This document shows positions 1,015 to 16,142 of a stretch of 64,000 bases of DNA, piece by piece. The first letter of the stretch is position 1; each line of letters begins with the position of its first letter. The notes under the pieces are model-generated. The model worked only from the letters and a program-made list of their open reading frames with translations, was not told the DNA's origin and did no database searches. Source of the DNA: an uncultured Candidatus Pelagibacter sp. (lineage in GTDB: Bacteria; Pseudomonadota; Alphaproteobacteria; Pelagibacterales; Pelagibacteraceae). Position numbers and translations under genes: made by a program. The DNA lies in assembly GCA_905616395.1 (NCBI GenBank), contig CAJQSQ010000012.1, positions 14,188 through 78,187 on the forward strand. Direction: 5' to 3'.

Positions 1015-2088
1015 ATGAATAAAAAACCTATAATTTTAGGAATTGAATCAAGCTGTGATGAAACGGCTGCCTCTATCATAACTGAAAATAAGCAAGGTAT
1101 GCCAACAATTTTATCAAGTATTGTTTCAAGTCAGGTAGATGTTCATAAAGAATTCGGCGGCGTTGTGCCTGAACTTGCTGCAAGATCTCATATGGAAAAA
1201 ATAGATTTAATCACTAAAAAAGCACTTGATGAAAGCGGAGTAAAAATGGAGGACCTGGATGCTATAGCAGCAACTGCTGGACCAGGTCTTATAGTTTGCT
1301 TGTCTGTCGGTTTAAGTTTTAGTAAAGCAATGGCCTCTTCACTTAATAAACCTTTTATTGCAGTCAACCATCTTGAAGGGCATGCTTTAAGCCCAAAACT
1401 AAATTCTGAATTAAATTATCCTTATCTGTTACTTTTAATTTCTGGAGGTCATACTCAATTTTTAAGCGTTCAAGGTTTAGGAAGTTATAAACGATTAGGA
1501 ACCACTATTGATGATGCTGTGGGTGAGGCATTTGACAAAACAGCAAAACTATTAGGAATAGAGTTCCCTGGTGGCCCGCAGATTGAGGTATACGCAAAAA
1601 AAGGTGATCCAAATAAATATTTATTACCCAAGCCAATTTTTTATAAAGGTGGCTGCAATTTATCATTTGCGGGTTTAAAAACTGCTGTTTTAAAGATCTC
1701 TAAACAAATTAAAACCGATCAAGAAAAATATGATCTTGCAGCATCTTTTCAAAAAACAATCGAAGAAATACTATATAAGAAAAGTAAGATCGCTTTTGAA
1801 GAATTTAAAAATATAAATATAAAAAATAAAAATAAATTTGTGGTTGCGGGTGGCGTCGCTGCAAACAAAAGAATTAGAGAAGTCCTGACTAACCTTTGTG
1901 AGGAAGAGGACTTCGAAGCAATCTTTCCTCCCATTAATTTATGTGGTGATAATGCTGCAATGATTGCAATGGTTGGATTAGAAAAATTTAAACTTAAACA
2001 ATTTAGTGAGCTGGATCATCCAGCAAAACCTAGATGGCCTTTAGATGAGAATGCTATTTTTTTAAAAGGTGCTGGAGTAAAATTGTAA
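1015..2088 (+). CDS. tsaD: tRNA N6-adenosine threonylcarbamoyltransferase
   Basis: LGIESSCDET, GGVVPELAARSH, HLEGH, LLISGGHT, DDAVGEAFDK, CGDNAAMIA motifs. Confidence 0.97.
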   Translation: MNKKPIILGIESSCDETAASIITENKQGMPTILSSIVSSQVDVHKEFGGVVPELAARSHMEKIDLITKKALDESGVKMEDLDAIAATAGPGLIVCLSVGLSFSKAMASSLNKPFIAVNHLEGHALSPKLNSELNYPYLLLLISGGHTQFLSVQGLGSYKRLGTTIDDAVGEAFDKTAKLLGIEFPGGPQIEVYAKKGDPNKYLLPKPIFYKGGCNLSFAGLKTAVLKISKQIKTDQEKYDLAASFQKTIEEILYKKSKIAFEEFKNINIKNKNKFVVAGGVAANKRIREVLTNLCEEEDFEAIFPPINLCGDNAAMIAMVGLEKFKLKQFSELDHPAKPRWPLDENAIFLKGAGVKL

Positions 2089-2108
2089 TGCAATACTGGT
2101 TAATGAAA
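2088..2108 (+). repeat. Left copy of 21-bp direct repeat (attL-like), orphaned 5' end of EVE gene
   Basis: ATGCAATACTGGTTAATGAAA matches ATGCAGTACTGGTTAATGAAA at 8115-8135 at 20/21 positions; overlaps the tsaD stop as TAATG. Confidence 0.9.
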
Positions 2109-2450
2109 CCAACACACCTTGTAGCTGCTGCCTTAACTGAAATCATGTCTCGTTCGCCTTTATCTGTCATTTCATAAGTGCCTGAGGATTTTTTACAGCC
2201 TCAAACTATTTTGTTGAAGCAGAGCCTAAGCCTTTGATTTCATTAAAAATTTCTTGGCCAATTTTAGGTTTTAACTTAATTACGTTTCTGGTCTTTTTAT
2301 CTATCTTAGTTATAAAAAAACCATATTTAAACTTACCCTCATAAATATTACCCTGAGCATCTATATATTTTCCCTTACCATAAATTTTATTTTCTTTTAC
2401 TTGGACCGATGATTATGGGCATACAAAATCAATAATAAAAACTATCAATT
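2109..2450 (-). pseudogene. Degraded small protein with a MORN-like repeat
   Basis: Manual translation gives VKENKIYGKGKYIDAQGNIYEGKFKYGFFITKIDKKTRNVIKLKPKIGQEIFNEIKGLGSASTK* (TAG at 2206-2208), then FEAVK, then after a frameshift KSSGTYEMTDKGERDMISVKAAA; another in-frame TAA upstream and no intact start; boundaries approximate. Confidence 0.55.
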
Positions 2451-2624
2451 GGGCTTCAAAACAATTTTATAACTACATGTCTTTCTAAATGATGCTAATA
2501 AAATTTAATAAACCAAATTAATTAATAATAACTAACTCTATAAATGTGTTGAGCATATTTTATAAAATTGTGCAGTACATTGAGCTATATGATTTAGCAA
2601 AATCTTTCTAAACATCCCTTTCAT

Positions 2625-3758
2625 TTAAAAAAATTTGAACTTGTAATCCTTAAAATATTTCTGTGTATCTTTTAACCAAATATCTTTTTTTTTGAGAATA
2701 TTGTAGAATTTTATATCACTACCACCATATCCAAATATTTTAGTTTTTTTTCTTTTTGTATTCTTAACATTACTGATTGCGGAAATTATTTTATTTAAAT
2801 CGTAATCAACATTCGTTATTGAATAACCTTTGGATCTATTATGTTGGCGACTCCCAATGTTAATTGTAGGAACTCCAAAATATGGTGCTTCCCTTATCCC
2901 TGCACTAGAATTTCCAATTATAAATTCTGAGTTTTTTAGAGTGGTTAAAAAATATTCAAATCTCATTGATGGTATTAAATAAAACTGTTTATTTTTTTTT
3001 AACCTTTGATATTCAGCAAAAATTTTATCAGTTCCGAAATCATTATTTGGGTAAATAACAATAAAATTTTTTTTGCTTTGTATCAAGGCATCAACAAGTA
3101 TTGACGTTTGTTTGGCCAAATCCTTAACTTCTGTAGTTACCGGGTGAAATAAAAGTATGGCATAATTATCAAATCCTATTTTATAATGACGACGAGTTTT
3201 CTTTATATTTGGTAGTAGTTTAGATTTCATAACATCTATATCTGGAGATCCTATTTCATAAATTGTTTCTTTTGGCTCTCCTAAATGCATTACTCTGCGA
3301 TACGAAGACTTATTTGATACAAAATGTAAATTAACTAACTTAGTCACTGAATGTCGTATAACCTCATCAACAGTTCCTGAGACCTCACCACCCTCTATGT
3401 GTCCTACTTTTATATTGTTTAAAGATCCCACTATTGCTCCTGCTAGTGCCTCAACTCGATCCCCATGTACTATGATCATGTCTTGATTATTTTCCTTAAT
3501 ATAGTCAGAAAACCCTATTATAGTTTTAGCTAAAACTATATCCATATGATCTAAATAATTTTGATTGATAAATTTATAGATATTTTTTATTCCTGATCTA
3601 TCAACCTCAATATGAGTTGATCCATATTTCTCTAACATGTGCATACCTGTTACAAAAATAGTAACTTGAAATTCTGGATCTTTTTGAGTTCGAAGTATTA
3701 AAGACTTAATTTTTCCAAAATCTGCTCGCGTACCGGTTAAAAAGATAATCTTACGCAA
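2625..3758 (-). CDS. neuC: UDP-N-acetylglucosamine 2-epimerase (hydrolysing)
   Basis: TGTRADFGK, HGDRVEALA, HIEGGEVSGTVDEVIRH, GNSSAGIREAP; adjacent to neuB. Confidence 0.93.
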   Translation of the reverse strand: MRKIIFLTGTRADFGKIKSLILRTQKDPEFQVTIFVTGMHMLEKYGSTHIEVDRSGIKNIYKFINQNYLDHMDIVLAKTIIGFSDYIKENNQDMIIVHGDRVEALAGAIVGSLNNIKVGHIEGGEVSGTVDEVIRHSVTKLVNLHFVSNKSSYRRVMHLGEPKETIYEIGSPDIDVMKSKLLPNIKKTRRHYKIGFDNYAILLFHPVTTEVKDLAKQTSILVDALIQSKKNFIVIYPNNDFGTDKIFAEYQRLKKNKQFYLIPSMRFEYFLTTLKNSEFIIGNSSAGIREAPYFGVPTINIGSRQHNRSKGYSITNVDYDLNKIISAISNVKNTKRKKTKIFGYGGSDIKFYNILKKKDIWLKDTQKYFKDYKFKFF

Positions 3759-4812
3759 TATCTTTACCTTTTTCTCCTAAGGACGCACGAGTAACTCTAG
3801 CATCTTTTAATATAAATTTTTGTGCAACCTTACCAATTAATGAATCATAATCTGCAGCAGAATAATCTCCTCCACTAGGCCTACGCACCCACAAATTTTC
3901 TTCAGTCAAAATCTCTCCTTTAGAAATATTTTTAGTAGCAACAACTGATGCAAACGCAAATGCTTTTGTTTGAGCCTCTTCACTAACAGTGTTTTTATAG
4001 CCACCTCGCTCTAAAAAAATAGTATTACTACCATTTATCAATTCTTTTAATGAAATTGGATCCATTGAACAGGCAATATCTGGGCCTGGACGACTCATAT
4101 CATCAGTAAAATGTCTTTCAAGAATTGATGCACCTAAAGCAACGGCACCTAAACATGCATAATTATTTATTGTATGATCTGAAAGACCAATTATGGCATC
4201 AGGAAAAGCTTGACTCAATTCAGTTAATGCACCCAACCTAACTAATTCAGGTGGAGTTGGATAAATATTTGTACAATGTAGAAGGGCAAATGGTACACCT
4301 GCTTTTCTCATTATTTCAACAGATGGCCTAATACTTTCCACAGTATTCATTCCTGTACTTAATATTATTGGTTTACCTGCTTTGGCCACATATTTAACCA
4401 ATGGGTAGTTATTGCATTCCCCTGATCCTATTTTATAAGCAGGAACATCAAATTTGACTAAACGATTTACTGCTTCTCTTGAAAAGGGTGTACTTATAAA
4501 TATCGCATTTCGATCAATAATATGTTTCATAAGTTTTTTTTCATCAACTTCATTAAGTGCACATCTTTTCATGACTTCATAAATTGAAACTGTTGTATTG
4601 CCTGGTATTACTGCTTTTGCTTCTTCTGACATTTCGTCTTCAATTATGTGAGTTTGATGTTTAATTATCTCAGCACCAGCATTAATAGCTGAATCTGCCA
4701 TTTCAATAGCTAAATCAAGATTTCCTTCATGATTAATGCCAATTTCAGCAATAATCAATGGTGGGTGTTTATAACCAATCTTTCTTCCAGAAATTGAAAA
4801 TTCTAAGTCCAT
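3751..4812 (-). CDS. neuB: N-acetylneuraminate synthase family protein with C-terminal SAF/AFP-like domain
   Basis: IAEIGINHEG, KHQTH, FISTPFS, KIGSGECNNYPL, LLHCTNIYPT, GLSDHT, LERHFTD. Confidence 0.95.
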   Translation of the reverse strand: MDLEFSISGRKIGYKHPPLIIAEIGINHEGNLDLAIEMADSAINAGAEIIKHQTHIIEDEMSEEAKAVIPGNTTVSIYEVMKRCALNEVDEKKLMKHIIDRNAIFISTPFSREAVNRLVKFDVPAYKIGSGECNNYPLVKYVAKAGKPIILSTGMNTVESIRPSVEIMRKAGVPFALLHCTNIYPTPPELVRLGALTELSQAFPDAIIGLSDHTINNYACLGAVALGASILERHFTDDMSRPGPDIACSMDPISLKELINGSNTIFLERGGYKNTVSEEAQTKAFAFASVVATKNISKGEILTEENLWVRRPSGGDYSAADYDSLIGKVAQKFILKDARVTRASLGEKGKDIA

Positions 4813-4850
4813 TTAATTTTATTATCTAAAAACTTTATCCCACATCTTAT

Positions 4851-6086
4851 CTAGGGTTTCAGTTTATTTTTATAATACTTTAAGGTTTTATTTAAAGCTT
4901 TTTCTTGTTTATTCATTTCTGCCAAATTTCTTTGATTGGTGGTAAATTGCATCATTATTTTTTGAATATTTTCAGCATTCTCTGCATCGCCCCAACCATA
5001 TGAACTAGAAATTTTCATTGAACCAGAATAAAGACCTTTTTCCTTTGCATCTTTAAATGCTGGTTCATTATTTACAGTTTGCCAAGCAGCATAGATACCA
5101 TCACCACCAAAATATATAAATTTTTTTCTAAACTCTTGCCATTTTACCCCATATTTTTTCCCATTAAATATGCACGGAAAAGTATAGTAACTATGCGTAA
5201 ATTGATTTGGGATAAGTTGATTTATCAAAATATCAAAATTATTTTTTGAAATAACTTTTCTAAATTTCTTACCCATTACAATTCTTTTTGATAAAAAAAA
5301 ATTCAACCGCTCTATCTGGGCAAGCCCTATCGCAGCAGCAACCTCTGGTAATCTATAATTATAAGCTAAAACAGCATGTCTTTTCCAATTTGGATCTTGA
5401 AATTTATTTCTATCAATTCTTACCTTACCACTCTTGGCAGTTACATTTTTAAAACCAGCACAAGCAAATTCTCTCATTTTCTTTGCAAGTTTTGCATTAT
5501 TAGTTGAAACAATTCCTCCATCACCAGTTGTGATATGTTTGGAATTTTCAAAACTCCAACTACCCACATCCCCAACTGTTCCTGCTATTCTTTTTTTTTC
5601 ATCACTGGCAAAAAAACATTGGGCACAATCTTCTAATATAAATAATTTATTTTTTTTTGCTATTCTCTTTATTGCTGACATGTCACACATTAATCCATAA
5701 AGATGAACAACCATAATTGCTTTGGTCTTTTTAGTTATTTTTTTTTCAATATCATGCGGGTCAATTAGAAAAGTATCTTTTTTAACATCTGCATAAACTG
5801 GAACTGCTCCGCATTGCCAAACTGCATATCCACACATTGCAACTGTTAAGGCAGGAATAATAACCTCATCCCCATGCCCTACACCAAAAGCATTCAAAGC
5901 CATATGCAGCGTAGAAGTTCCAGAGTTTGCTGTAACGGCATAGTTTTGTTTGTGAATTTTTGCAAATTTCACCTCTAGTCTTTCATTCATTGTTCCTGAA
6001 GAATCTGCTCTGAAATCTGAAGATAAAATATTTTTTATATAACTCAATTCTTTACCTTTAAACTTCCATCCCTTATAAAGTGACAT
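4851..6086 (-). CDS. DegT/DnrJ/EryC1/StrS family PLP-dependent sugar aminotransferase
   Basis: NSGTSTLHMAL, VHLYG, ILEDCAQ, SFENSKHITTGDGG (PLP Lys), YNYRL. Confidence 0.92.
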   Translation of the reverse strand: MSLYKGWKFKGKELSYIKNILSSDFRADSSGTMNERLEVKFAKIHKQNYAVTANSGTSTLHMALNAFGVGHGDEVIIPALTVAMCGYAVWQCGAVPVYADVKKDTFLIDPHDIEKKITKKTKAIMVVHLYGLMCDMSAIKRIAKKNKLFILEDCAQCFFASDEKKRIAGTVGDVGSWSFENSKHITTGDGGIVSTNNAKLAKKMREFACAGFKNVTAKSGKVRIDRNKFQDPNWKRHAVLAYNYRLPEVAAAIGLAQIERLNFFLSKRIVMGKKFRKVISKNNFDILINQLIPNQFTHSYYTFPCIFNGKKYGVKWQEFRKKFIYFGGDGIYAAWQTVNNEPAFKDAKEKGLYSGSMKISSSYGWGDAENAENIQKIMMQFTTNQRNLAEMNKQEKALNKTLKYYKNKLKP

Positions 6087-6813
6087 ATTTTTTTCCTTGG
6101 TTTAATTTATAGTCTTTTTCTCTAAAATGATTAATTTTTGTAATTTTTTTATTTTTTTCTAAATAATTTATCACTTTAGCTGTTTTTATTGTGAAGGGAA
6201 ATTTAGAAAATATATTTTGAAAAAAAATGAGATCTTCTTTATAATCAAGTGTAAATCTCATATTATTGTTTTTTTTTAGTCTCAAAGAATAAGATTTATA
6301 ATTATTTTTTAAATAAGGAGCAATCATTTCAATATTATTATTTTTGGAATTATTAAAAGCTCGCTTAATTACAAAAGCTTTAAAAATATATGTAAATAAT
6401 CCCGTGATAGAGTTTTTATTAGATTTTATATAATCACAATTTTTATTAATGATTTTATTAATTGCATTTTTATAAGTCACATAATCAAACAGCAAATCAT
6501 CTGCGTCTACCATTACAGCAACCTTTACTTTAAATTTGTTAATACAATCATTCCATCTTTTTAGAACATTATTTTTTGAACCTCTAAAATATAAAATTTT
6601 ATTTTCCTTAGCTATATTACATAAAGGAAGGTCTGATGCCTCAGTTGTTGTAGCAAGTATGATCGGGTAACCAATTTTTTTTGCTCTATCTATTATTATT
6701 TCTATGATAAGTTTTTTATTTATTAATTTTAAACACTTTTTAGGAAGTCTTGTTGAGCTTGTCCTGACTGTTATTATAGTAAAAATATTTTTATTAATTT
6801 TTTTTTTTAACAT
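6073..6813 (-). CDS. Cytidylyltransferase (SpsF/CMP-nonulosonate synthetase-like)
   Basis: TVRTSSTRLPKK, ILATT, FRGS..NVL.R, VDADD, RFTLDY.EDL; ORF track starts at 6870 but ATG at 6813 (MLKKKINK) is the more likely start. Confidence 0.8.
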   Translation of the reverse strand: MLKKKINKNIFTIITVRTSSTRLPKKCLKLINKKLIIEIIIDRAKKIGYPIILATTTEASDLPLCNIAKENKILYFRGSKNNVLKRWNDCINKFKVKVAVMVDADDLLFDYVTYKNAINKIINKNCDYIKSNKNSITGLFTYIFKAFVIKRAFNNSKNNNIEMIAPYLKNNYKSYSLRLKKNNNMRFTLDYKEDLIFFQNIFSKFPFTIKTAKVINYLEKNKKITKINHFREKDYKLNQGKKYVTL

Positions 6814-6847
6814 AAAATTAATTACTATAATAAAGTAAAAATAATAA

Positions 6848-7528
6848 CTACCAAGATAACCATCCACCATCTACATAAACTTCTTGGGCATTAGTATAAG
6901 TATTTTTTTCATCTAATAAAAAATTAATTACAGGATCTATTTCATCTAAGTTCATCATTCTACCTTTTGGATTATTTTTATTATAATTTTTTCTAAAAAA
7001 AGAATTTAATCCTTTTTGATCAACCCCACCAAGCACAATACTATTAAACAAATATTTTTTCCCAAACTGTGTTCCAAAGTATTTCATCATCATGTTTGAT
7101 GCAGATTTCGATACACAATAACCAAGTTCTTTTGAAAAGTTTTTATAAATAAAATGTTTTGGTGTTTTGATGCTATATAAAGAAGTGAAGTTAATTATTC
7201 TACCTTCTTTTTGAAATTTTATATAGCTTTTAATAACATTTAAATTCAAAAAGAAATTTATATCAAAAAATTTTTTTATAGAGCTCTCGTCTAAATTTTT
7301 TGAATCTTTTTTTGAGTTTTTTGAAAGTGGTGTAGAATTATGACCATGGCAAAATATAACAGCATATATTTTATTATTATTGAATATCTCTTTTAAATAT
7401 TCATTATTTTTTAAATCATTGCCATTACTAATATCTGATTCAATAATAATAAAATTTTTTTTTAAATTTTTTTTTAAAGATGAGCCTATTCTTCCATTAG
7501 ATCCCGTTAAAAATATTTTTTTTTTCAT
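6848..7528 (-). CDS. SDR family oxidoreductase
   Basis: TGSNGRIG Rossmann motif, IINFTS, YCVSK (YxxxK), AQEVYVDGG. Confidence 0.88.
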   Translation of the reverse strand: MKKKIFLTGSNGRIGSSLKKNLKKNFIIIESDISNGNDLKNNEYLKEIFNNNKIYAVIFCHGHNSTPLSKNSKKDSKNLDESSIKKFFDINFFLNLNVIKSYIKFQKEGRIINFTSLYSIKTPKHFIYKNFSKELGYCVSKSASNMMMKYFGTQFGKKYLFNSIVLGGVDQKGLNSFFRKNYNKNNPKGRMMNLDEIDPVINFLLDEKNTYTNAQEVYVDGGWLSW

Positions 7529-7629
7529 TTAGGTTTATGTTTAATTTTTATTTTTTTATCAATCATTTATAGCAATTTTTTTATAAAAAAAATTAAATAT
7601 ACTTTTATTTCTAAATTTTTAGGGAATAT

Positions 7630-7929
7630 ATGGAAAAAAAACTAGGGTTTAATAATAGAGCTATCAGAAACTACAAAGCTACCTTCATAAGTGGTAAAGG
7701 TAATTCCAAAGATAGAGATTATGCACCATTTAACATATGCAAGACCACACAATATAAAGGCCTATATCTTTGTAAATATAAGAAGGGTAAGAAACACTTT
7801 GTCTCACAGTTTTATATCAAAAGTACTGGAAGGCTACGAAGGTTCACAGTAGGTAGATTTATTGACAATTTAAATGTCATCACTGGAGAAACTATCCAAA
7901 CTTCGCTTTCCAAAATCACAACCACATGA
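7630..7929 (+). pseudogene. Truncated tyrosine integrase (arm-type DNA-binding N-terminal region only)
   Basis: KGLYLCKYKKGKKHFVSQFYIKSTGRLRRFTVGRF resembles the integrase Arm-DNA-binding signature (GLYL...GxKxF..xY...GxxRRxTxGxF/Y); 99 aa with no catalytic core; lies about 185 bp from the right repeat. Confidence 0.6.
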
Positions 7930-8114
7930 AGAAGATGATTGCATTGAATAAGCATTGATAATGTTGAAAGTGTCATAGAAAAAATATAAGTTCTCTTATG
8001 TTATTAACTAATAAACACAACAAGAGTTGATCAGACATGTCACGTGTTTTATTAAAATAACGTAAAATAAAAGTGTTAAATAAAATTATGGTGACCTGTA
8101 AGGAAAACAATTAG

Positions 8115-8135
8115 ATGCAGTACTGGTTAATGAAA
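8115..8135 (+). repeat. Right copy of 21-bp direct repeat (attR-like), first 7 codons of intact EVE gene
   Basis: ATGCAGTACTGGTTAATGAAA; one synonymous mismatch (CAG vs CAA) to the copy at 2088-2108. Confidence 0.9.
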
Positions 8136-8528
8136 TCTGAGCCTGATGTTTGGTCTATTGATCAACAAAAAAAGGCTGGTGCTAAAGGCGCTCCTTGGGA
8201 TGGGGTAAGAAATTATCAAGCGGCTAAAAATTTAAGAAAAATGAAAAAAGGAGATCTTTGTTTTTTTTATCACTCAAATATTGGCAAAGAAATTGTTGGT
8301 ATAGTTGAGGTTATTGAAGAGGCTTTCTTAGACAAAACTGACAAGGATGGACGATTTGTAGCTGTTCAAGTAAAGTTTAAAGAAAAATTAAAGAAAAATG
8401 TAACGCTTGAAGAGATTAAAAAAACCAAGTCTCTTGGTCATTTATCGCTTATTAAACAAAGCAGATTATCCGTTATGCCCATAGACTCTAAAAGCTGGAA
8501 AATTTTAAATAAGATGAGTATTATTTAA
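8115..8528 (+). CDS. EVE domain-containing protein
   Basis: YWLMKSEP, WDGVRNYQA, MKKGDLCFFYHS, SRLSVMP. Confidence 0.95.
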   Translation: MQYWLMKSEPDVWSIDQQKKAGAKGAPWDGVRNYQAAKNLRKMKKGDLCFFYHSNIGKEIVGIVEVIEEAFLDKTDKDGRFVAVQVKFKEKLKKNVTLEEIKKTKSLGHLSLIKQSRLSVMPIDSKSWKILNKMSII

Positions 8529-14531: not shown

Positions 14532-16142
14532 ATGATTTTAAATAATTCACTTACGGTTATTAAAAAAAAAATTCGTCATTTTTATTTAAACTCCAATCTC
14601 TATAATAAAAAAATTACACCCTCGTCTATTGGTTTAATAGAATACCAACCAAGCCCTAGCTTGCTAGATTGTCTTATAAAATATGACAAAAGAAAAATTA
14701 ATATAGAAAATTATTCATTAAATGAAATTTGGGATAATCCAAATTTAAAAGAAAAAGACCAGCAAAACTTAAGTAGTTTTTTTTGGTTATTTAGTCTAGA
14801 TCTTAAATCTTCAAAAAAAGACACCCAAAATGTTATTTATCAATGGATTGATACAAATAACAGATACAACTCTAAAAATTGGAAAATTAATATAATTGGA
14901 AAAAGAATAATAGCTTGGATTTCAAATTCTAGGCTTACCTATGAAGATGGAAGTATTGATTATAAAGACAAATTTAATAGTATTATAAAGAAGCAGATCA
15001 ATCATCTTATTAATGAAATTGAAACCTCTGAAATAATCAATGATAAGATAATAGGCTGTGCTGCTATCATTTTAACTGGCCTATCCTACCCTCAAAATAA
15101 TAATTATTTAAATACTGGTTTAGATTTACTAAAAAAATTAGCAAAATATTCATTGGATAATGATGGCTTTCCAAAATCAAGGAATATTAGGCAGTTAAGT
15201 TTTTATTTAAAATATTTTATATTAATTAGAGAGTGGTTCAAAGAATCTCAAAATGAAATACCTGACTTTATAAATGAAAATATATATTATTTAGGTCAGG
15301 CTTACGCTTTTATTTGGCAAAACAATAAAGTAGATTTTCTCTTTAATGGTAACCATAGAACAAATAATCATAATTTTGACCTTTATTTAAAAAGACTTGG
15401 CTATAACTTTAAAAATCAAAATAATGAGCTAGGTGGCTATGCAGTTCTTAACAATAAAAAAAATTCTCTGATAATGGATATTGGATCAAGCCCAAATACA
15501 AAACTATCTTCAAATTATCAGGCTGGAGCTTTGTCTTTTGAAATAATATCAAATGGTAAAAAATTAATTAGTAATTGTGGTTATTTTCAAAAGGTTAATC
15601 ACCAATTAAATGAAATATCTAAATCGAGTGCAGTCCACAGCACGCTAATTGTAGATGATAAATCTTCTTGTAGTTTTAATAAACTCAGAGACAAAAAATC
15701 TAGAATTAACCAAGGGTTAAGAATACTAAAAAAAAATATTGTATTTGAAAAAAATTATTGGAAAATTAATGCTTCTCATGATGGTTATTTAAAACTACAT
15801 GGAATTGTTCATGCTCGAGAAATAGAATTCTACCCTGAGCAATTGAAATTTATTGGACACGATAAAATTATTTCTAATAAGGGCATTACGAATTTAAAAT
15901 TTGAAATTAGATTTCACTTAGAACCAAACGTTAAAGTAATGAAAACAAAAGATGGAAAGTCAATATTTATAGATCTTGATGGAGAGGGCTGGAAGTTTAG
16001 CTCAGACAACTCAATAATGAATATTGATAAAGGGTTATATTTTGGTAAAAAAAATTCTTTCACAGATAATCAAAATATATTTATTTCAGGAATGACTAAT
16101 GAAGAAAATCAAACTATAAGATGGGAAATCACAAAATTATAA
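14532..16142 (+). CDS. Heparinase II/III family protein
   Basis: C-terminal SSAVHSTL, ASHDGY, RFHL motifs; rpe-heparinase-purH synteny. Confidence 0.75.
   Translation: MILNNSLTVIKKKIRHFYLNSNLYNKKITPSSIGLIEYQPSPSLLDCLIKYDKRKINIENYSLNEIWDNPNLKEKDQQNLSSFFWLFSLDLKSSKKDTQNVIYQWIDTNNRYNSKNWKINIIGKRIIAWISNSRLTYEDGSIDYKDKFNSIIKKQINHLINEIETSEIINDKIIGCAAIILTGLSYPQNNNYLNTGLDLLKKLAKYSLDNDGFPKSRNIRQLSFYLKYFILIREWFKESQNEIPDFINENIYYLGQAYAFIWQNNKVDFLFNGNHRTNNHNFDLYLKRLGYNFKNQNNELGGYAVLNNKKNSLIMDIGSSPNTKLSSNYQAGALSFEIISNGKKLISNCGYFQKVNHQLNEISKSSAVHSTLIVDDKSSCSFNKLRDKKSRINQGLRILKKNIVFEKNYWKINASHDGYLKLHGIVHAREIEFYPEQLKFIGHDKIISNKGITNLKFEIRFHLEPNVKVMKTKDGKSIFIDLDGEGWKFSSDNSIMNIDKGLYFGKKNSFTDNQNIFISGMTNEENQTIRWEITKL

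What the first reader, a model, noticed from the sequence alone, without database searches (positions are those of the whole stretch)
2625..4812. NeuB/NeuC of the true Neu5Ac type in a free-living marine oligotroph
Seen in sequence: NeuB motifs IAEIGINHEG, KHQTH..EDEMS.EAK.VIPGN, KIGSGECNNYPL, HCTNIYPTP and RPGPDI.CSM. From recall, these closely follow Neisseria SiaC and Campylobacter NeuB1 (Neu5Ac synthases) rather than legionaminic or pseudaminic acid synthases, and NeuC (TGTRADFGK) likewise follows SiaA/NeuC. Most environmental nonulosonate pathways make Leg or Pse. Inference: this strain may decorate its surface with vertebrate-type sialic acid, possibly altering phage adsorption or grazer recognition.
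Basis: partly seen in the sequence, partly recalled or inferred. Interest (0 to 1): 0.7.

Follow-up and report, generated by a model that had tools for sequence, protein, structure and literature searches.

The report
Sialic-acid-type sugar cassette in SAR11
A rare strain of the ocean bacterium Pelagibacter (SAR11) carries a small swapped-in five-gene operon whose two core enzymes closely match the meningococcal sialic acid enzymes, but three coupled tailoring genes suggest the final surface sugar is an amino-modified sialic acid, not the plain vertebrate one.

Summary
NeuC (2625-3758) and NeuB (3751-4812) are intact minus-strand genes with every quoted motif. NeuB is 66.8% identical to crystallised Neisseria SiaC and matches it at all 19 metal, PEP and ManNAc sites checked. 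It sits in a SiaC-like clade (100/100 bootstrap) apart from LegI- and PseI-type synthases (33-37% identity). NeuC falls with SiaA-like epimerases, not with crystallised LegG.

- SiaC-like NeuB is common in environmental bacteria, so the rarity premise fails.
- The pair is the tail of a five-gene operon: SDR, SpsF-like cytidylyltransferase, an unusual DegT aminotransferase, NeuB, NeuC.
- The cytidylyltransferase-aminotransferase pair recurs in SAR11-like DNA beside very different ulosonic-acid synthases, including a KdsA-like one.
- It also exists as a single fused protein, and can sit alongside canonical PseB/PseC.

My best reading (about 45%) is that Neu5Ac is an intermediate that gets oxidised, transaminated and CMP-activated. 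Plain Neu5Ac and a legionaminic-type product remain possible.

The cassette lies between tsaD and an EVE-domain gene, flanked by a 21-nt direct repeat. That site holds other cargo in other Pelagibacter genomes. The cassette is rare, and fragments of each gene appear in metatranscriptome contigs. No glycosyltransferase is included.

The parts
1015..2088 (+). tsaD, the conserved left flank of the insertion hotspot
   Evidence: Pfam TsaD in identical contigs. Its 90% cluster has 1381 members, named Candidatus Pelagibacter.
2088..2108 (+). Left copy of the 21-nt direct repeat ATGCAATACTGGTTAATGAAA. It starts on the last base of the tsaD stop codon and copies the first 21 nt of the EVE gene.
   Evidence: the repeat finder family D18, 20/21 identical to 8115-8135. 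The same pair is in six of the eight other island-bearing contigs scanned; L087 ends before the right copy and L094 shows one variant copy.
2109..2624 (.). Degenerate non-coding filler. It holds an EVE N-terminus remnant (MQYWLMK, then divergent) and a MORN-repeat-like reading on the minus strand around 2290-2420.
   Evidence: Translations. No intact ORF of 40 aa or more. The MORN resemblance is by eye only.
2625..3758 (-). NeuC: hydrolysing UDP-GlcNAc 2-epimerase of the SiaA-like clade (predicted UDP-GlcNAc to ManNAc + UDP)
   Evidence: TIGR03568 at 398 bits against cut-off 236. Clade I of the NeuC tree: 47-59% identical to NeuC genes next to SiaC-like NeuB, 32% to A. baumannii LegG.
3751..4812 (-). 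NeuB: SiaC-like nonulosonate synthase with an intact ManNAc-type pocket (predicted ManNAc + PEP to Neu5Ac)
   Evidence: 510 bits and 66.8% identity to PDB 1xuu. 19/19 active-site residues identical. SiaC-like clade 100/100.
4851..6086 (-). DegT/DnrJ/EryC1-family PLP aminotransferase of a distinct 411-aa subtype. The catalytic Lys is present in SFENSKHITTGDGG. Proposed to aminate an oxidised ulosonic acid.
   Evidence: PF01041 at 1.4e-76. The LegC and PseC models score only 190 bits against cut-offs of 420 and 423. Exists fused to the cytidylyltransferase in relatives. Coexists with bona fide PseB and a near-cut-off PseC in L104 and L133.
6073..6870 (-). SpsF-like CTP_transf_3 cytidylyltransferase, the proposed CMP-nonulosonate synthetase of the operon. 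It overlaps DegT by 14 nt.
   Evidence: PF02348 at 3.5e-13; only weak KdsB-model hits. JGI name 'SpsF'. SpsF is genetically the CMP-Leg step in B. subtilis (PMC7439481).
6848..7528 (-). Classical short-chain dehydrogenase, distantly PtmA-like (TGxxGxxG and YxxxK motifs present). Proposed oxidase that supplies the keto or aldehyde group for transamination. It overlaps the cytidylyltransferase by 23 nt.
   Evidence: adh_short_C2 at 3.3e-13; NF006619 78 bits, PtmA model 53 bits, both below cut-off.
7630..7929 (+). Conserved 99-aa ORF of unknown function at the right end of the island
   Evidence: 99-100% identical in the island-bearing contigs that reach it. No Pfam or PHROG hit even at permissive E-values.
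8115..8135 (+). Right copy of the 21-nt repeat, which is the true start of the EVE-domain gene (8115-8528)
   Evidence: EVE PF01878 at 1.1e-45.

Best explanation
The 6-kb segment between tsaD and the EVE gene is a rare cargo cassette at a Pelagibacter insertion hotspot. It encodes one operon, SDR - SpsF-like cytidylyltransferase - DegT aminotransferase - NeuB - NeuC, that needs only UDP-GlcNAc and PEP to start.

Proposed steps:
1. NeuC hydrolyses and 2-epimerises UDP-GlcNAc to ManNAc.
2. NeuB condenses ManNAc with PEP to Neu5Ac.
3. The SDR oxidises one hydroxyl of the nine-carbon acid.
4. The DegT enzyme transaminates the resulting carbonyl.
5. The cytidylyltransferase makes the CMP-activated donor.

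The order of steps 3-5, and whether they act on the free or the CMP-linked sugar, is unknown. The predicted product is an amino-deoxy derivative of Neu5Ac. The position cannot be assigned: C9 by analogy with Kdo8N, or C8 by analogy with the 8-amino nonulosonate of Flexibacter maritimus. A resident transferase encoded elsewhere would add it to a surface glycan.

Shown: gene identities, the operon structure, the Neu-type character of NeuB and NeuC, the modular and fused nature of the cytidylyltransferase-aminotransferase pair, and the hotspot.
Inferred: the chemistry of steps 3-5 and the final product.
For: Neu-type core:
- NeuB is 66.8% identical to SiaC with 19/19 catalytic and substrate residues conserved. 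LegI/PseI-type proteins differ at positions 74 and 184, and LegI-type also at 288 (residue lists from PMC6795526 and PMC7371886).
- Relatives with N74H are the ones found with LegG-clade NeuC or, in part, 4,6-dehydratases.
- NeuC is in the SiaA-like clade, not the LegG clade.

Operon:
- Overlaps of 23, 14 and 8 nt and one 38-nt gap.
- The island is bounded by housekeeping genes and holds no dehydratase and no N-acetyltransferase.

Tailoring module:
- SDR-CTP-DegT recurs at 63-86% identity in SAR11-like low-GC loci.
- The CTP-DegT pair sits beside SiaC-like NeuB, 27-36% identical NeuB-like proteins, and a KdsA-like Kdo-8-P synthase paralogue.
- It exists as CTP::DegT fusion proteins in the same domain order as the window genes.
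- It coexists with PseB (473 and 431 bits, above cut-off) and PseC-like proteins (414 and 378 bits, just below the 423.5 cut-off). There it is an extra aminotransferase, not the canonical 4-aminotransferase.
- The same SDR-CTP-DegT (97-100% identical) is combined at the same hotspot with a different N74-type NeuB/NeuC pair (53% and 51% identity) in L094.

Precedents:
- An Fe-ADH + DegT pair next to NeuA-NeuB-NeuC in Bacteroidota.
- Kdo8N and an 8-amino nonulosonate exist in marine bacteria (PMC3210612).

Expression and integrity:
- Fragments of each island gene appear in marine metatranscriptome contigs.
- ORFs are intact, and the DegT protein is identical in the contigs read from an index listing 50 collection blocks.
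Against: - No enzyme was assayed.
- In L149 (a Ca. P. ubique MAG) and L095-type loci, the DegT subtype is the only aminotransferase near a PseB-like dehydratase. There it could be the ordinary 4-aminotransferase.
- The best PDB matches of the DegT are nucleotide-sugar aminotransferases: an unnamed 'sugar aminotransferase' (7b0m) at 182 bits and perosamine synthetase at 162 bits. KdnA scores 138 bits.
- The SDR is of the PtmA type. In Campylobacter-like Leg clusters that type accompanies the CMP synthetase without any known amination role.
- SiaC-like NeuB genes are also found in loci with PtmE and LegG-clade epimerases, so the clade may not be restricted to ManNAc.
- The biochemically characterised Legionella pneumophila Leg synthase could not be placed in my tree.
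- The rest of the genome is unseen, so dehydratase, acetyltransferase and transferase genes may lie elsewhere.
Confidence: 0.45

Rival explanations
1. Plain sialic acid. NeuC and NeuB make Neu5Ac, the SpsF-like enzyme makes CMP-Neu5Ac, and the cell displays vertebrate-type Neu5Ac. The SDR and aminotransferase serve an unrelated amino sugar of the same glycan.
For: Neu-type NeuB and NeuC. A cytidylyltransferase of the NeuA/KdsB/SpsF superfamily is present. Co-located but unrelated sugar genes are common in glycan loci; I recall E. coli O145 as an example, with Neu5Ac genes beside WbuXYZ.
Against: All five genes are translationally coupled in one operon on a 6-kb cassette. The cytidylyltransferase and aminotransferase are fused into one protein in relatives. 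They follow ulosonic-acid synthases of several kinds rather than any hexose pathway. No NeuA-type synthetase is present, unlike most of the 80 other SiaC-like loci.
Confidence: 0.17
2. A legionaminic- or pseudaminic-type pathway completed in trans. The DegT is the 4-aminotransferase acting on UDP-4-keto-6-deoxy-HexNAc. A 4,6-dehydratase and an N-acetyltransferase encoded elsewhere (for example in a SAR11 glycosylation island, HVR2 from my recall of SAR11 genomics) supply and process the substrate. NeuC and NeuB handle the 2,4-diamino-trideoxy sugar, giving a 5,7-diamino-tetradeoxy nonulosonate.
For: The DegT scores best, though weakly, on the LegC and PseC models. In L149 and L095-type loci this DegT subtype is the only aminotransferase beside a PseB-like dehydratase. 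A closely related NeuB (78%) lies in a locus with a Polysacc_synt_2 dehydratase, an aminotransferase and a GNAT. SpsC/SpsE/SpsF-type genes make Leg in B. subtilis (PMC7439481).
Against: No dehydratase or acetyltransferase in the island. NeuB keeps N74, N184 and F288, and NeuC is outside the LegG clade. Dehydratase- or LegG-linked relatives carry N74H and clade II epimerases. The DegT coexists with PseB and a near-cut-off PseC in L104 and L133, and with a KdsA-like synthase in L146. Genomes with a complete syntenic LegB-LegC-LegH-LegI-LegG cluster carry a SiaC-like cluster in addition.
Confidence: 0.2
3. A silent or decaying hitch-hiker: the cassette is a recently acquired remnant that makes no product in this host.
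For: Degenerate DNA lies at both ends (2109-2624 and 7930-8114). There is no transferase in the island. Only low metatranscriptome depth is seen, and DNA carry-over cannot be excluded.
Against: All five ORFs are intact and all examined catalytic motifs are preserved. The proteins are identical or 99-100% identical in the contigs fetched from many ocean samples.
Confidence: 0.05

Closest known systems
Neisseria meningitidis sia locus (SiaA/NeuC, SiaC/NeuB; PDB 1xuu/1xuz)
   Same: NeuB is 66.8% identical with the same two-domain architecture and an identical metal, PEP and ManNAc pocket. NeuC belongs to the clade of epimerases found beside SiaC-like synthases. The logic of making ManNAc from UDP-GlcNAc and condensing it with PEP is the same.
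   Different: From recall, the Neisseria locus also carries a NeuA/SiaB-type CMP-Neu5Ac synthetase and a polysialyltransferase; neither type is present here. Gene order is NeuB then NeuC, preceded by SDR, an SpsF-like cytidylyltransferase and an aminotransferase. The host is a free-living oligotroph, and the genes sit on a hotspot cassette.
Shewanella Kdo8N pathway (KdnB oxidase + KdnA aminotransferase)
   Same: An oxidoreductase and a DegT-family aminotransferase that would convert a hydroxyl of a finished ulosonic acid into an amine. KdnA (PDB 5k8b) is a significant match of the window DegT (138 bits). Relatives of the module sit beside a KdsA-like synthase.
   Different: The oxidase here is a classical SDR, not an iron alcohol dehydrogenase. 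The synthase here is NeuB (nine carbons). The pair is coupled, and sometimes fused, to a cytidylyltransferase. No biochemical evidence exists for this module.
Campylobacter jejuni leg/ptm locus and Bacillus subtilis sps genes (legionaminic acid)
   Same: They combine a NeuB-family synthase, a NeuC-family epimerase, a DegT aminotransferase, a CTP_transf_3 cytidylyltransferase (SpsF-like in Bacillus) and a PtmA-type SDR.
   Different: Those pathways need a 4,6-dehydratase and an N-acetyltransferase, which the island lacks. Their synthases and epimerases belong to the LegI and LegG clades (33-37% and 32% identity here). The window DegT fails the LegC and PseC model cut-offs by more than 200 bits.
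Replacement flexible genomic islands of marine bacteria (SAR11 hypervariable regions)
   Same: A fixed chromosomal site carries different surface-glycan or accessory cargo in different strains. GC is lower than the core, and the cassette is rare in the population.
   Different: This site is small (0.4-6 kb). It is marked by reiterated 21-nt copies of the EVE gene start, which suggests site-specific insertion, but no recognisable integrase is present.

Membership tests
N-acetylneuraminate synthase (NeuB/SiaC type) | NeuB TIM-barrel domain plus C-terminal SAF/antifreeze-like domain | tested here: met
   PF03102 at 2.8e-67 and PF08666 at 5.2e-10.
N-acetylneuraminate synthase (NeuB/SiaC type) | Score above the curated NCBIfam TIGR03569 cut-off | tested here: inconclusive
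   374.7 bits against 399.65. Crystallised SiaC (residues 6-346) itself scores 399.4, while syntenic LegI-type proteins score 487-488. The model therefore does not separate Neu from Leg, and it under-scores the whole SiaC-like clade.
N-acetylneuraminate synthase (NeuB/SiaC type) | Conservation of the metal, PEP and ManNAc contact residues of N. meningitidis NeuB | tested here: met
   19/19 identical, including N74, N184, Y186, F288 and R314 (residue list from PMC6795526).
N-acetylneuraminate synthase (NeuB/SiaC type) | Phylogenetic grouping with a characterised Neu5Ac synthase rather than with LegI/PseI | tested here: met
   SiaC-like clade 100/100 NJ bootstrap; 66.8% to SiaC against 36-37% to LegI-type and 33% to PseI-type. 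The LegI and PseI anchors are defined by synteny and curated models, not by assayed proteins.
N-acetylneuraminate synthase (NeuB/SiaC type) | Condenses ManNAc with PEP | not testable with these tools
   Needs an enzyme assay.
Hydrolysing UDP-GlcNAc 2-epimerase (NeuC/SiaA) | Score above the TIGR03568 cut-off, and in the SiaA-like rather than the LegG clade | tested here: met
   398 bits against 236. Clade I of the NeuC tree; 32% identity to A. baumannii LegG, which lies in clade II. N. meningitidis SiaA itself was not available as a sequence.
Complete bacterial Neu5Ac display pathway | NeuA-type CMP-Neu5Ac synthetase and a sialyltransferase in or near the cluster | tested here: not met
   The cytidylyltransferase is SpsF-like and did not cluster with the NeuA-type family found in most of the 80 other loci. 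The five island proteins and the 99-aa ORF were scanned and none is a glycosyltransferase. Of ORFs outside the island only ten were scanned, also without a glycosyltransferase hit; the rest of the window was not checked.
Legionaminic acid pathway (LegB/C/H/G/I/F) | 4,6-dehydratase, LegC aminotransferase, N-acetyltransferase, and LegG/LegI-clade enzymes | tested here: not met
   No dehydratase or acetyltransferase in the island. DegT scores 190.8 against the LegC cut-off of 420. NeuB and NeuC are outside the LegI and LegG clades. In-trans supply from the unseen genome cannot be excluded.
Pseudaminic acid pathway | PseI model cut-off, with PseB/PseC/PseH/PseG present | tested here: not met
   PseI 225.5 against 340.25; PseC 189.8 against 423.5. 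No PseB-, PseG- or PseH-like genes in the island.
Kdo8N-type tailoring (KdnA/KdnB) | Iron alcohol dehydrogenase plus KdnA-type aminotransferase acting on a finished ulosonic acid | tested here: inconclusive
   The aminotransferase matches KdnA at 138 bits, but matches nucleotide-sugar aminotransferases better. The oxidoreductase is an SDR, not an Fe-ADH. This is a 'works like' proposal, not membership.
Integrase-mobilised genomic island | Flanking direct repeats plus an integrase | tested here: inconclusive
   The 21-nt repeats are present and are reiterated in other genomes. No integrase was found: the 99-aa ORF has no Pfam or PHROG match.

The most novel reading that the evidence does not exclude
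SAR11 and other low-GC marine bacteria carry a previously undescribed, portable tailoring module: a PtmA-like SDR, an SpsF-like cytidylyltransferase and a 411-aa DegT aminotransferase, the last two sometimes fused. The module would convert finished ulosonic acids, made by NeuB-type or KdsA-type synthases, into amino-deoxy derivatives, possibly on the CMP-linked sugar. In this strain it would produce a natural amino-deoxy sialic acid, for example 9- or 8-amino-deoxy-Neu5Ac. To my knowledge that sugar has not been reported from nature.
Probability: 0.35. Interest if true: 0.75.

Novelty: new variant of a known kind. Interest (0 to 1): 0.5.

Why it matters
SAR11 is the most abundant bacterial lineage in the ocean, and its surface glycans are thought to govern phage adsorption and grazing.

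- The finding shows that a minority of Pelagibacter cells carry a compact cassette able to start from UDP-GlcNAc and build a sialic-acid-type sugar with enzymes nearly identical in their active sites to the meningococcal ones.
- This corrects the idea that Neu-type synthases are a host-associated trait.
- If the coupled cytidylyltransferase-aminotransferase-SDR module really aminates finished ulosonic acids, it is a new biosynthetic route. It would be a nine-carbon counterpart of Kdo8N, and a candidate explanation for the 8-amino nonulosonate described from Flexibacter maritimus.
- The module would also be a source of enzymes for making amino-sialic acids.
- The tsaD-EVE site with reiterated 21-nt repeats is a tractable small model of how SAR11 swaps accessory cargo.

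Tried and rejected
- **E. coli reference synthases.** A DNA search of the window neuB against all complete E. coli genomes, meant to fetch K1, O104 or O145 neuB, found no match.
- **Lewis et al. 2009 PNAS NeuB phylogeny.** Not held under its DOI or under the PMC id I guessed.
- **Placing Legionella pneumophila NeuB.** I searched with the NeuB of a Legionellaceae MAG (L038). The top 120 hits (70% identity or more) held no named Legionella protein, so the position of that enzyme is still untested. The L. pneumophila LPS locus paper shows a different gene order (aminotransferase-NeuD-NeuC-NeuB-NeuA), which gave no anchor.
- **Integrase remnant.** I suspected ORF 7630-7929 was an integrase arm-binding remnant. 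There is no Pfam or PHROG hit even at E values up to 10 and 1, so I dropped the idea.
- **Promoter and terminator scan of 2000-8200.** Fewer hits than in shuffles; uninformative in 30% GC DNA.
- **PDB entry 7B0M.** A literature search for this best structural match of the DegT found nothing.
- **TIGR03569 cut-off.** I first read the sub-threshold score as evidence against NeuB function. I rejected that after SiaC itself scored at the cut-off.
- **Percent identity alone.** It cannot assign the sugar. SiaC-like NeuB at 60-70% identity occurs with SiaA-like and with LegG-like epimerases. I therefore used residue and context evidence instead.
- **One failed call.** One search failed on stop codons. 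I redid the translation.
Full report
**1. What is there.**
The window is about 30% GC. Proteins in the same 90% clusters as its flanking genes (tsaD, acs, the EVE-domain gene) and its island genes are named Candidatus Pelagibacter by NCBI. On the minus strand between 7528 and 2625 lie five tightly packed ORFs:
- a 226-aa short-chain dehydrogenase (6848-7528);
- a 265-aa CTP_transf_3 cytidylyltransferase (6073-6870);
- a 411-aa DegT-family aminotransferase (4851-6086);
- NeuB (3751-4812);
- NeuC (2625-3758).

Successive genes overlap by 23, 14 and 8 nt, with one 38-nt gap, so this is one operon. The domain hits are overwhelming: NeuB family 2.8e-67 plus SAF, and Epimerase_2 1.7e-73. NeuC scores 398 bits on TIGR03568 against a cut-off of 236.

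**2. Is NeuB of the Neu5Ac type?**
NeuB matches crystallised N. meningitidis SiaC at E=2.4e-152, 66.8% identity. The next solved relatives are far weaker: B. subtilis SpsE at 168 bits and C. jejuni PseI at 142 bits.

I fetched 80 related loci from species genomes and built anchors from synteny.
- Two of these loci also carry a second, complete cluster LegB-LegC-acetyltransferase-NeuB-NeuC. One continues with PtmE-PtmF-LegF-PtmA, which from recall is the C. jejuni gene order.
- Its LegB, LegC and NeuD-type proteins pass the curated NCBIfam cut-offs (521, 532 and 190 bits).
- Its NeuC is 47% identical to crystallised A. baumannii LegG.
- Two further loci carry PseI-like paralogues; the one scanned passes the curated PseI cut-off (498 bits).

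In a bootstrapped NJ tree, the SiaC-like clade (53 sequences, including SiaC and the window protein) is separated from these LegI- and PseI-type proteins in 100 of 100 replicates. The window NeuB is only 36-37% and 33% identical to them.

At 19 metal, PEP and ManNAc positions the window protein is identical to SiaC. These include the 13 contact residues listed in PMC6795526. LegI- and PseI-type proteins differ at 74 and 184, and LegI-type also at 288. This agrees with the specificity regions proposed by Halsor et al. (PMC7371886).

The sub-threshold TIGR03569 score (374.7 against 399.65) is not a counter-argument. SiaC itself scores 399.4, and the LegI-type proteins score 487-488.

**3. NeuC.**
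The NeuC family splits into two deep clades.
- The window enzyme lies in clade I. So do the NeuC genes of loci whose NeuB is 79-82% identical to SiaC and whose gene order is NeuC-NeuA-NeuB, which I recall as the Neisseria sia order.
- A. baumannii LegG lies in clade II. So do the epimerases of the syntenic Leg clusters and those adjacent to PtmE-like nucleotidyltransferases.
- The window NeuC is 32% identical to LegG (188 bits). A clade II member scores 246 bits against LegG.

**4. What does not stand.**
SiaC-like NeuB is not unusual outside hosts.
- All 8000 scored candidates passed E<=1e-20, and the 120 listed are 67-99% identical.
- The 80 genome loci span Chlorobia, Bacteroidota, Firmicutes, Cyanobacteria, NC10, SAR86 and many Proteobacteria at 59-72% identity.
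- Vieira et al. 2021 reached the same conclusion (PMC8208679).

Within this clade the neighbours vary:
- NeuA-NeuB-NeuC followed by WbuZ/WbuY/WbuX amidotransferase genes;
- NeuB with clade II epimerases and PtmE;
- Bacteroidota loci with an iron alcohol dehydrogenase and a DegT next to NeuA-NeuB-NeuC;
- Gfo/Idh/MocA-NeuA-PtmA triads.

The clade is clearly used to build more than plain Neu5Ac. A subset with G/S-H-T-K-E/D in place of G-N-A-D-V at positions 73-77 (N74H) carries LegG-clade epimerases throughout, and in part of the loci a PseB/FnlA-like dehydratase, PtmE or a second DegT as well. The window protein keeps N74.

**5. The companion genes.**
Among the 81 loci first examined, the window's SDR, cytidylyltransferase and DegT recur only in one low-GC marine contig, at 77%, 71% and 86% identity.

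A metagenome scan with the DegT gave 45 marine loci, nearly all 23-30% GC. The cytidylyltransferase-DegT pair is the constant element, and the SDR is usually nearby. What changes is the synthase beside it:
- SiaC-like NeuB at 78-100%;
- N74H variants at 57% with a clade II NeuC and a PseB/FnlA-like dehydratase;
- distant NeuB-like proteins at 27-36%;
- in L146/L147, a KdsA-like Kdo-8-P synthase paralogue (231 bits) followed by a PtmA-like SDR.

In those last loci, and in two other protein clusters, the cytidylyltransferase and aminotransferase are one 638-647-aa fusion protein, in the same order as the window genes.

In L104 and L133 the DegT subtype sits in the same locus as a bona fide PseB (473 and 431 bits) and a PseC-like protein (414 and 378 bits). 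There it is an additional aminotransferase.

At the very hotspot of the window, contig L094 carries the same SDR-CTP-DegT (97-100% identical) joined to a different N74-type NeuB/NeuC pair (53% and 51% identity) on the opposite strand.

The DegT keeps its catalytic lysine and the SDR keeps its YxxxK motif (sequence). The cytidylyltransferase is SpsF-like (JGI name). spsF is required for transfer of legionaminic acid but not for its synthesis in B. subtilis (PMC7439481), which fits a CMP-nonulosonate synthetase.

**6. Mechanism proposed.**
The simplest reading of a module that follows ulosonic-acid synthases of three kinds, is fused to the activating enzyme, and can be extra to the canonical 4-aminotransferase, is post-condensation tailoring. 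The SDR oxidises a hydroxyl of the finished acid, free or CMP-linked. The DegT transaminates it. The cytidylyltransferase provides the donor.

Precedents are Kdo8N in Shewanella and the 8-amino-pentadeoxy nonulosonate of Flexibacter maritimus (PMC3210612). KdnA, the Kdo8N aminotransferase, is a significant though not the best structural-database match of the window DegT.

In this island the substrate would be Neu5Ac made by NeuC and NeuB. The aminated carbon cannot be assigned. I give this reading about 45%.

Against it:
- In L149 and the L095-type loci this DegT subtype is the only aminotransferase beside a PseB-like dehydratase.
- Its best PDB matches are nucleotide-hexose aminotransferases.
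- Nothing was assayed.

The rivals are plain CMP-Neu5Ac (about 17%), a Leg/Pse-type product completed by a dehydratase and acetyltransferase encoded elsewhere (about 20%), and a silent cassette (about 5%).

**7. The island and its site.**
A 21-nt direct repeat (20/21 identical) lies at 2088-2108, touching the tsaD stop codon, and at 8115-8135, the first 21 nt of the EVE gene.

Other Pelagibacter genomes have tsaD and the EVE gene in the same order but with different cargo between them:
- a methyltransferase, an AsnC regulator and DHDPS;
- an ABC transporter and a GDSL lipase;
- glyoxal-oxidase-like genes;
- almost nothing.

Three of the eight genomes scanned carry two extra copies of the repeat. 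It is a small insertion hotspot at the 5' end of the EVE gene.

No integrase is recognisable. The conserved 99-aa ORF at 7630-7929 has no family match.

The island proteins fall in 90% clusters of 15-31 members, against 1381-7978 for the flanking genes. The DegT protein is nevertheless indexed, identical, in 50 blocks of the public assembly collection. Metatranscriptome contigs cover fragments of each of the five genes at low depth, which is weak evidence of expression.

The closest NeuB relatives (77-80%) lie in larger low-GC glycosylation loci with MBOAT, Wzy_C, WecG and MptE/Maf-like genes. These look to me like SAR11 hypervariable glycosylation regions (recalled from SAR11 genomics, not tested here). 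The island itself has no transferase.

**8. Verdict.**
- Observation: confirmed.
- Interpretation: partly supported. The synthase and epimerase are Neu-type, the host is SAR11, and a surface role is plausible. But the rarity premise is wrong, and the product is probably not plain vertebrate-type Neu5Ac.
- Novelty: a new variant of a known kind. The genes are already annotated generically in public MAGs, and I found no paper on nonulosonates in SAR11.
- Main open caveat: no assayed LegI, notably that of L. pneumophila, could be placed in the tree.

Noticed in passing
window 2088-2108 and 8115-8135; L138 4711, 5283, 6001; L139/L141 3093, 4180, 6001: The first 21 nt of the EVE-domain gene are repeated at the tsaD stop. 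Three of the eight other Pelagibacter genomes scanned have two extra copies bracketing unrelated cargo. This suggests serial site-specific insertion at the 5' end of the EVE gene.
   Followed up: partly
window 7630-7929 (+): A 99-aa ORF, 99-100% conserved in the island-bearing contigs that reach it. It is rich in K/R/G/Y and has no Pfam or PHROG match. I could not support my first guess that it is an integrase arm-binding remnant.
   Followed up: yes
L094 1-6359 (MDSY01035977.1): Same hotspot and same SDR-CTP-DegT (97-100% identical), but NeuB and NeuC are replaced by a divergent pair (53% and 51% identity) on the opposite strand. This is cassette shuffling inside the island.
   Followed up: partly
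P0324, P0330, P0354; L146 229-4526: Natural fusion proteins of the SpsF-like cytidylyltransferase and the DegT aminotransferase. They are followed by a methyltransferase, a KdsA-like Kdo-8-P synthase paralogue and a PtmA-like SDR.
   Followed up: partly
L095-L098, L123; L017, L021, L024, L045, L052: SiaC-like NeuB variants with N74H (motif [GS]HTK[ED]) always have LegG-clade NeuC nearby, and some loci also have a PseB/FnlA-like dehydratase, PtmE or a second DegT. Position 74 may be a specificity switch for 6-deoxy or 4-amino substrates.
   Followed up: partly
L039, L041, L042, L044, L057 (Bacteroidota): An iron alcohol dehydrogenase and a 388-aa DegT lie directly upstream of NeuA-NeuB-NeuC. 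This is a KdnB/KdnA-like pair next to a Neu-type cluster.
   Followed up: no
about 20 of the 80 genome loci, e.g. L010 9295-15752: A widespread conserved block NeuA-NeuB-NeuC-WbuZ(HisF)-WbuY(HisH)-[methyltransferase]-WbuX occurs across phyla. It suggests acetamidino-modified sugars linked to SiaC-like clusters.
   Followed up: no
L026 and L078: Single genomes carry both a complete canonical Leg cluster and a separate SiaC-like NeuA-NeuB-NeuC cluster a few kb apart. The two clusters are presumably not redundant.
   Followed up: partly
window 2290-2420 (-): A stop-free stretch reads ...YGKGKYIDAQGNIYEGKFKYG..., which looks like a MORN-repeat fragment inside the degenerate left end of the island. 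Judged by eye only.
   Followed up: no
window 14532-16142 (+): A 536-aa protein with a heparinase II/III C-terminal domain (6.7e-55) lies next to purH in an otherwise housekeeping stretch.
   Followed up: no
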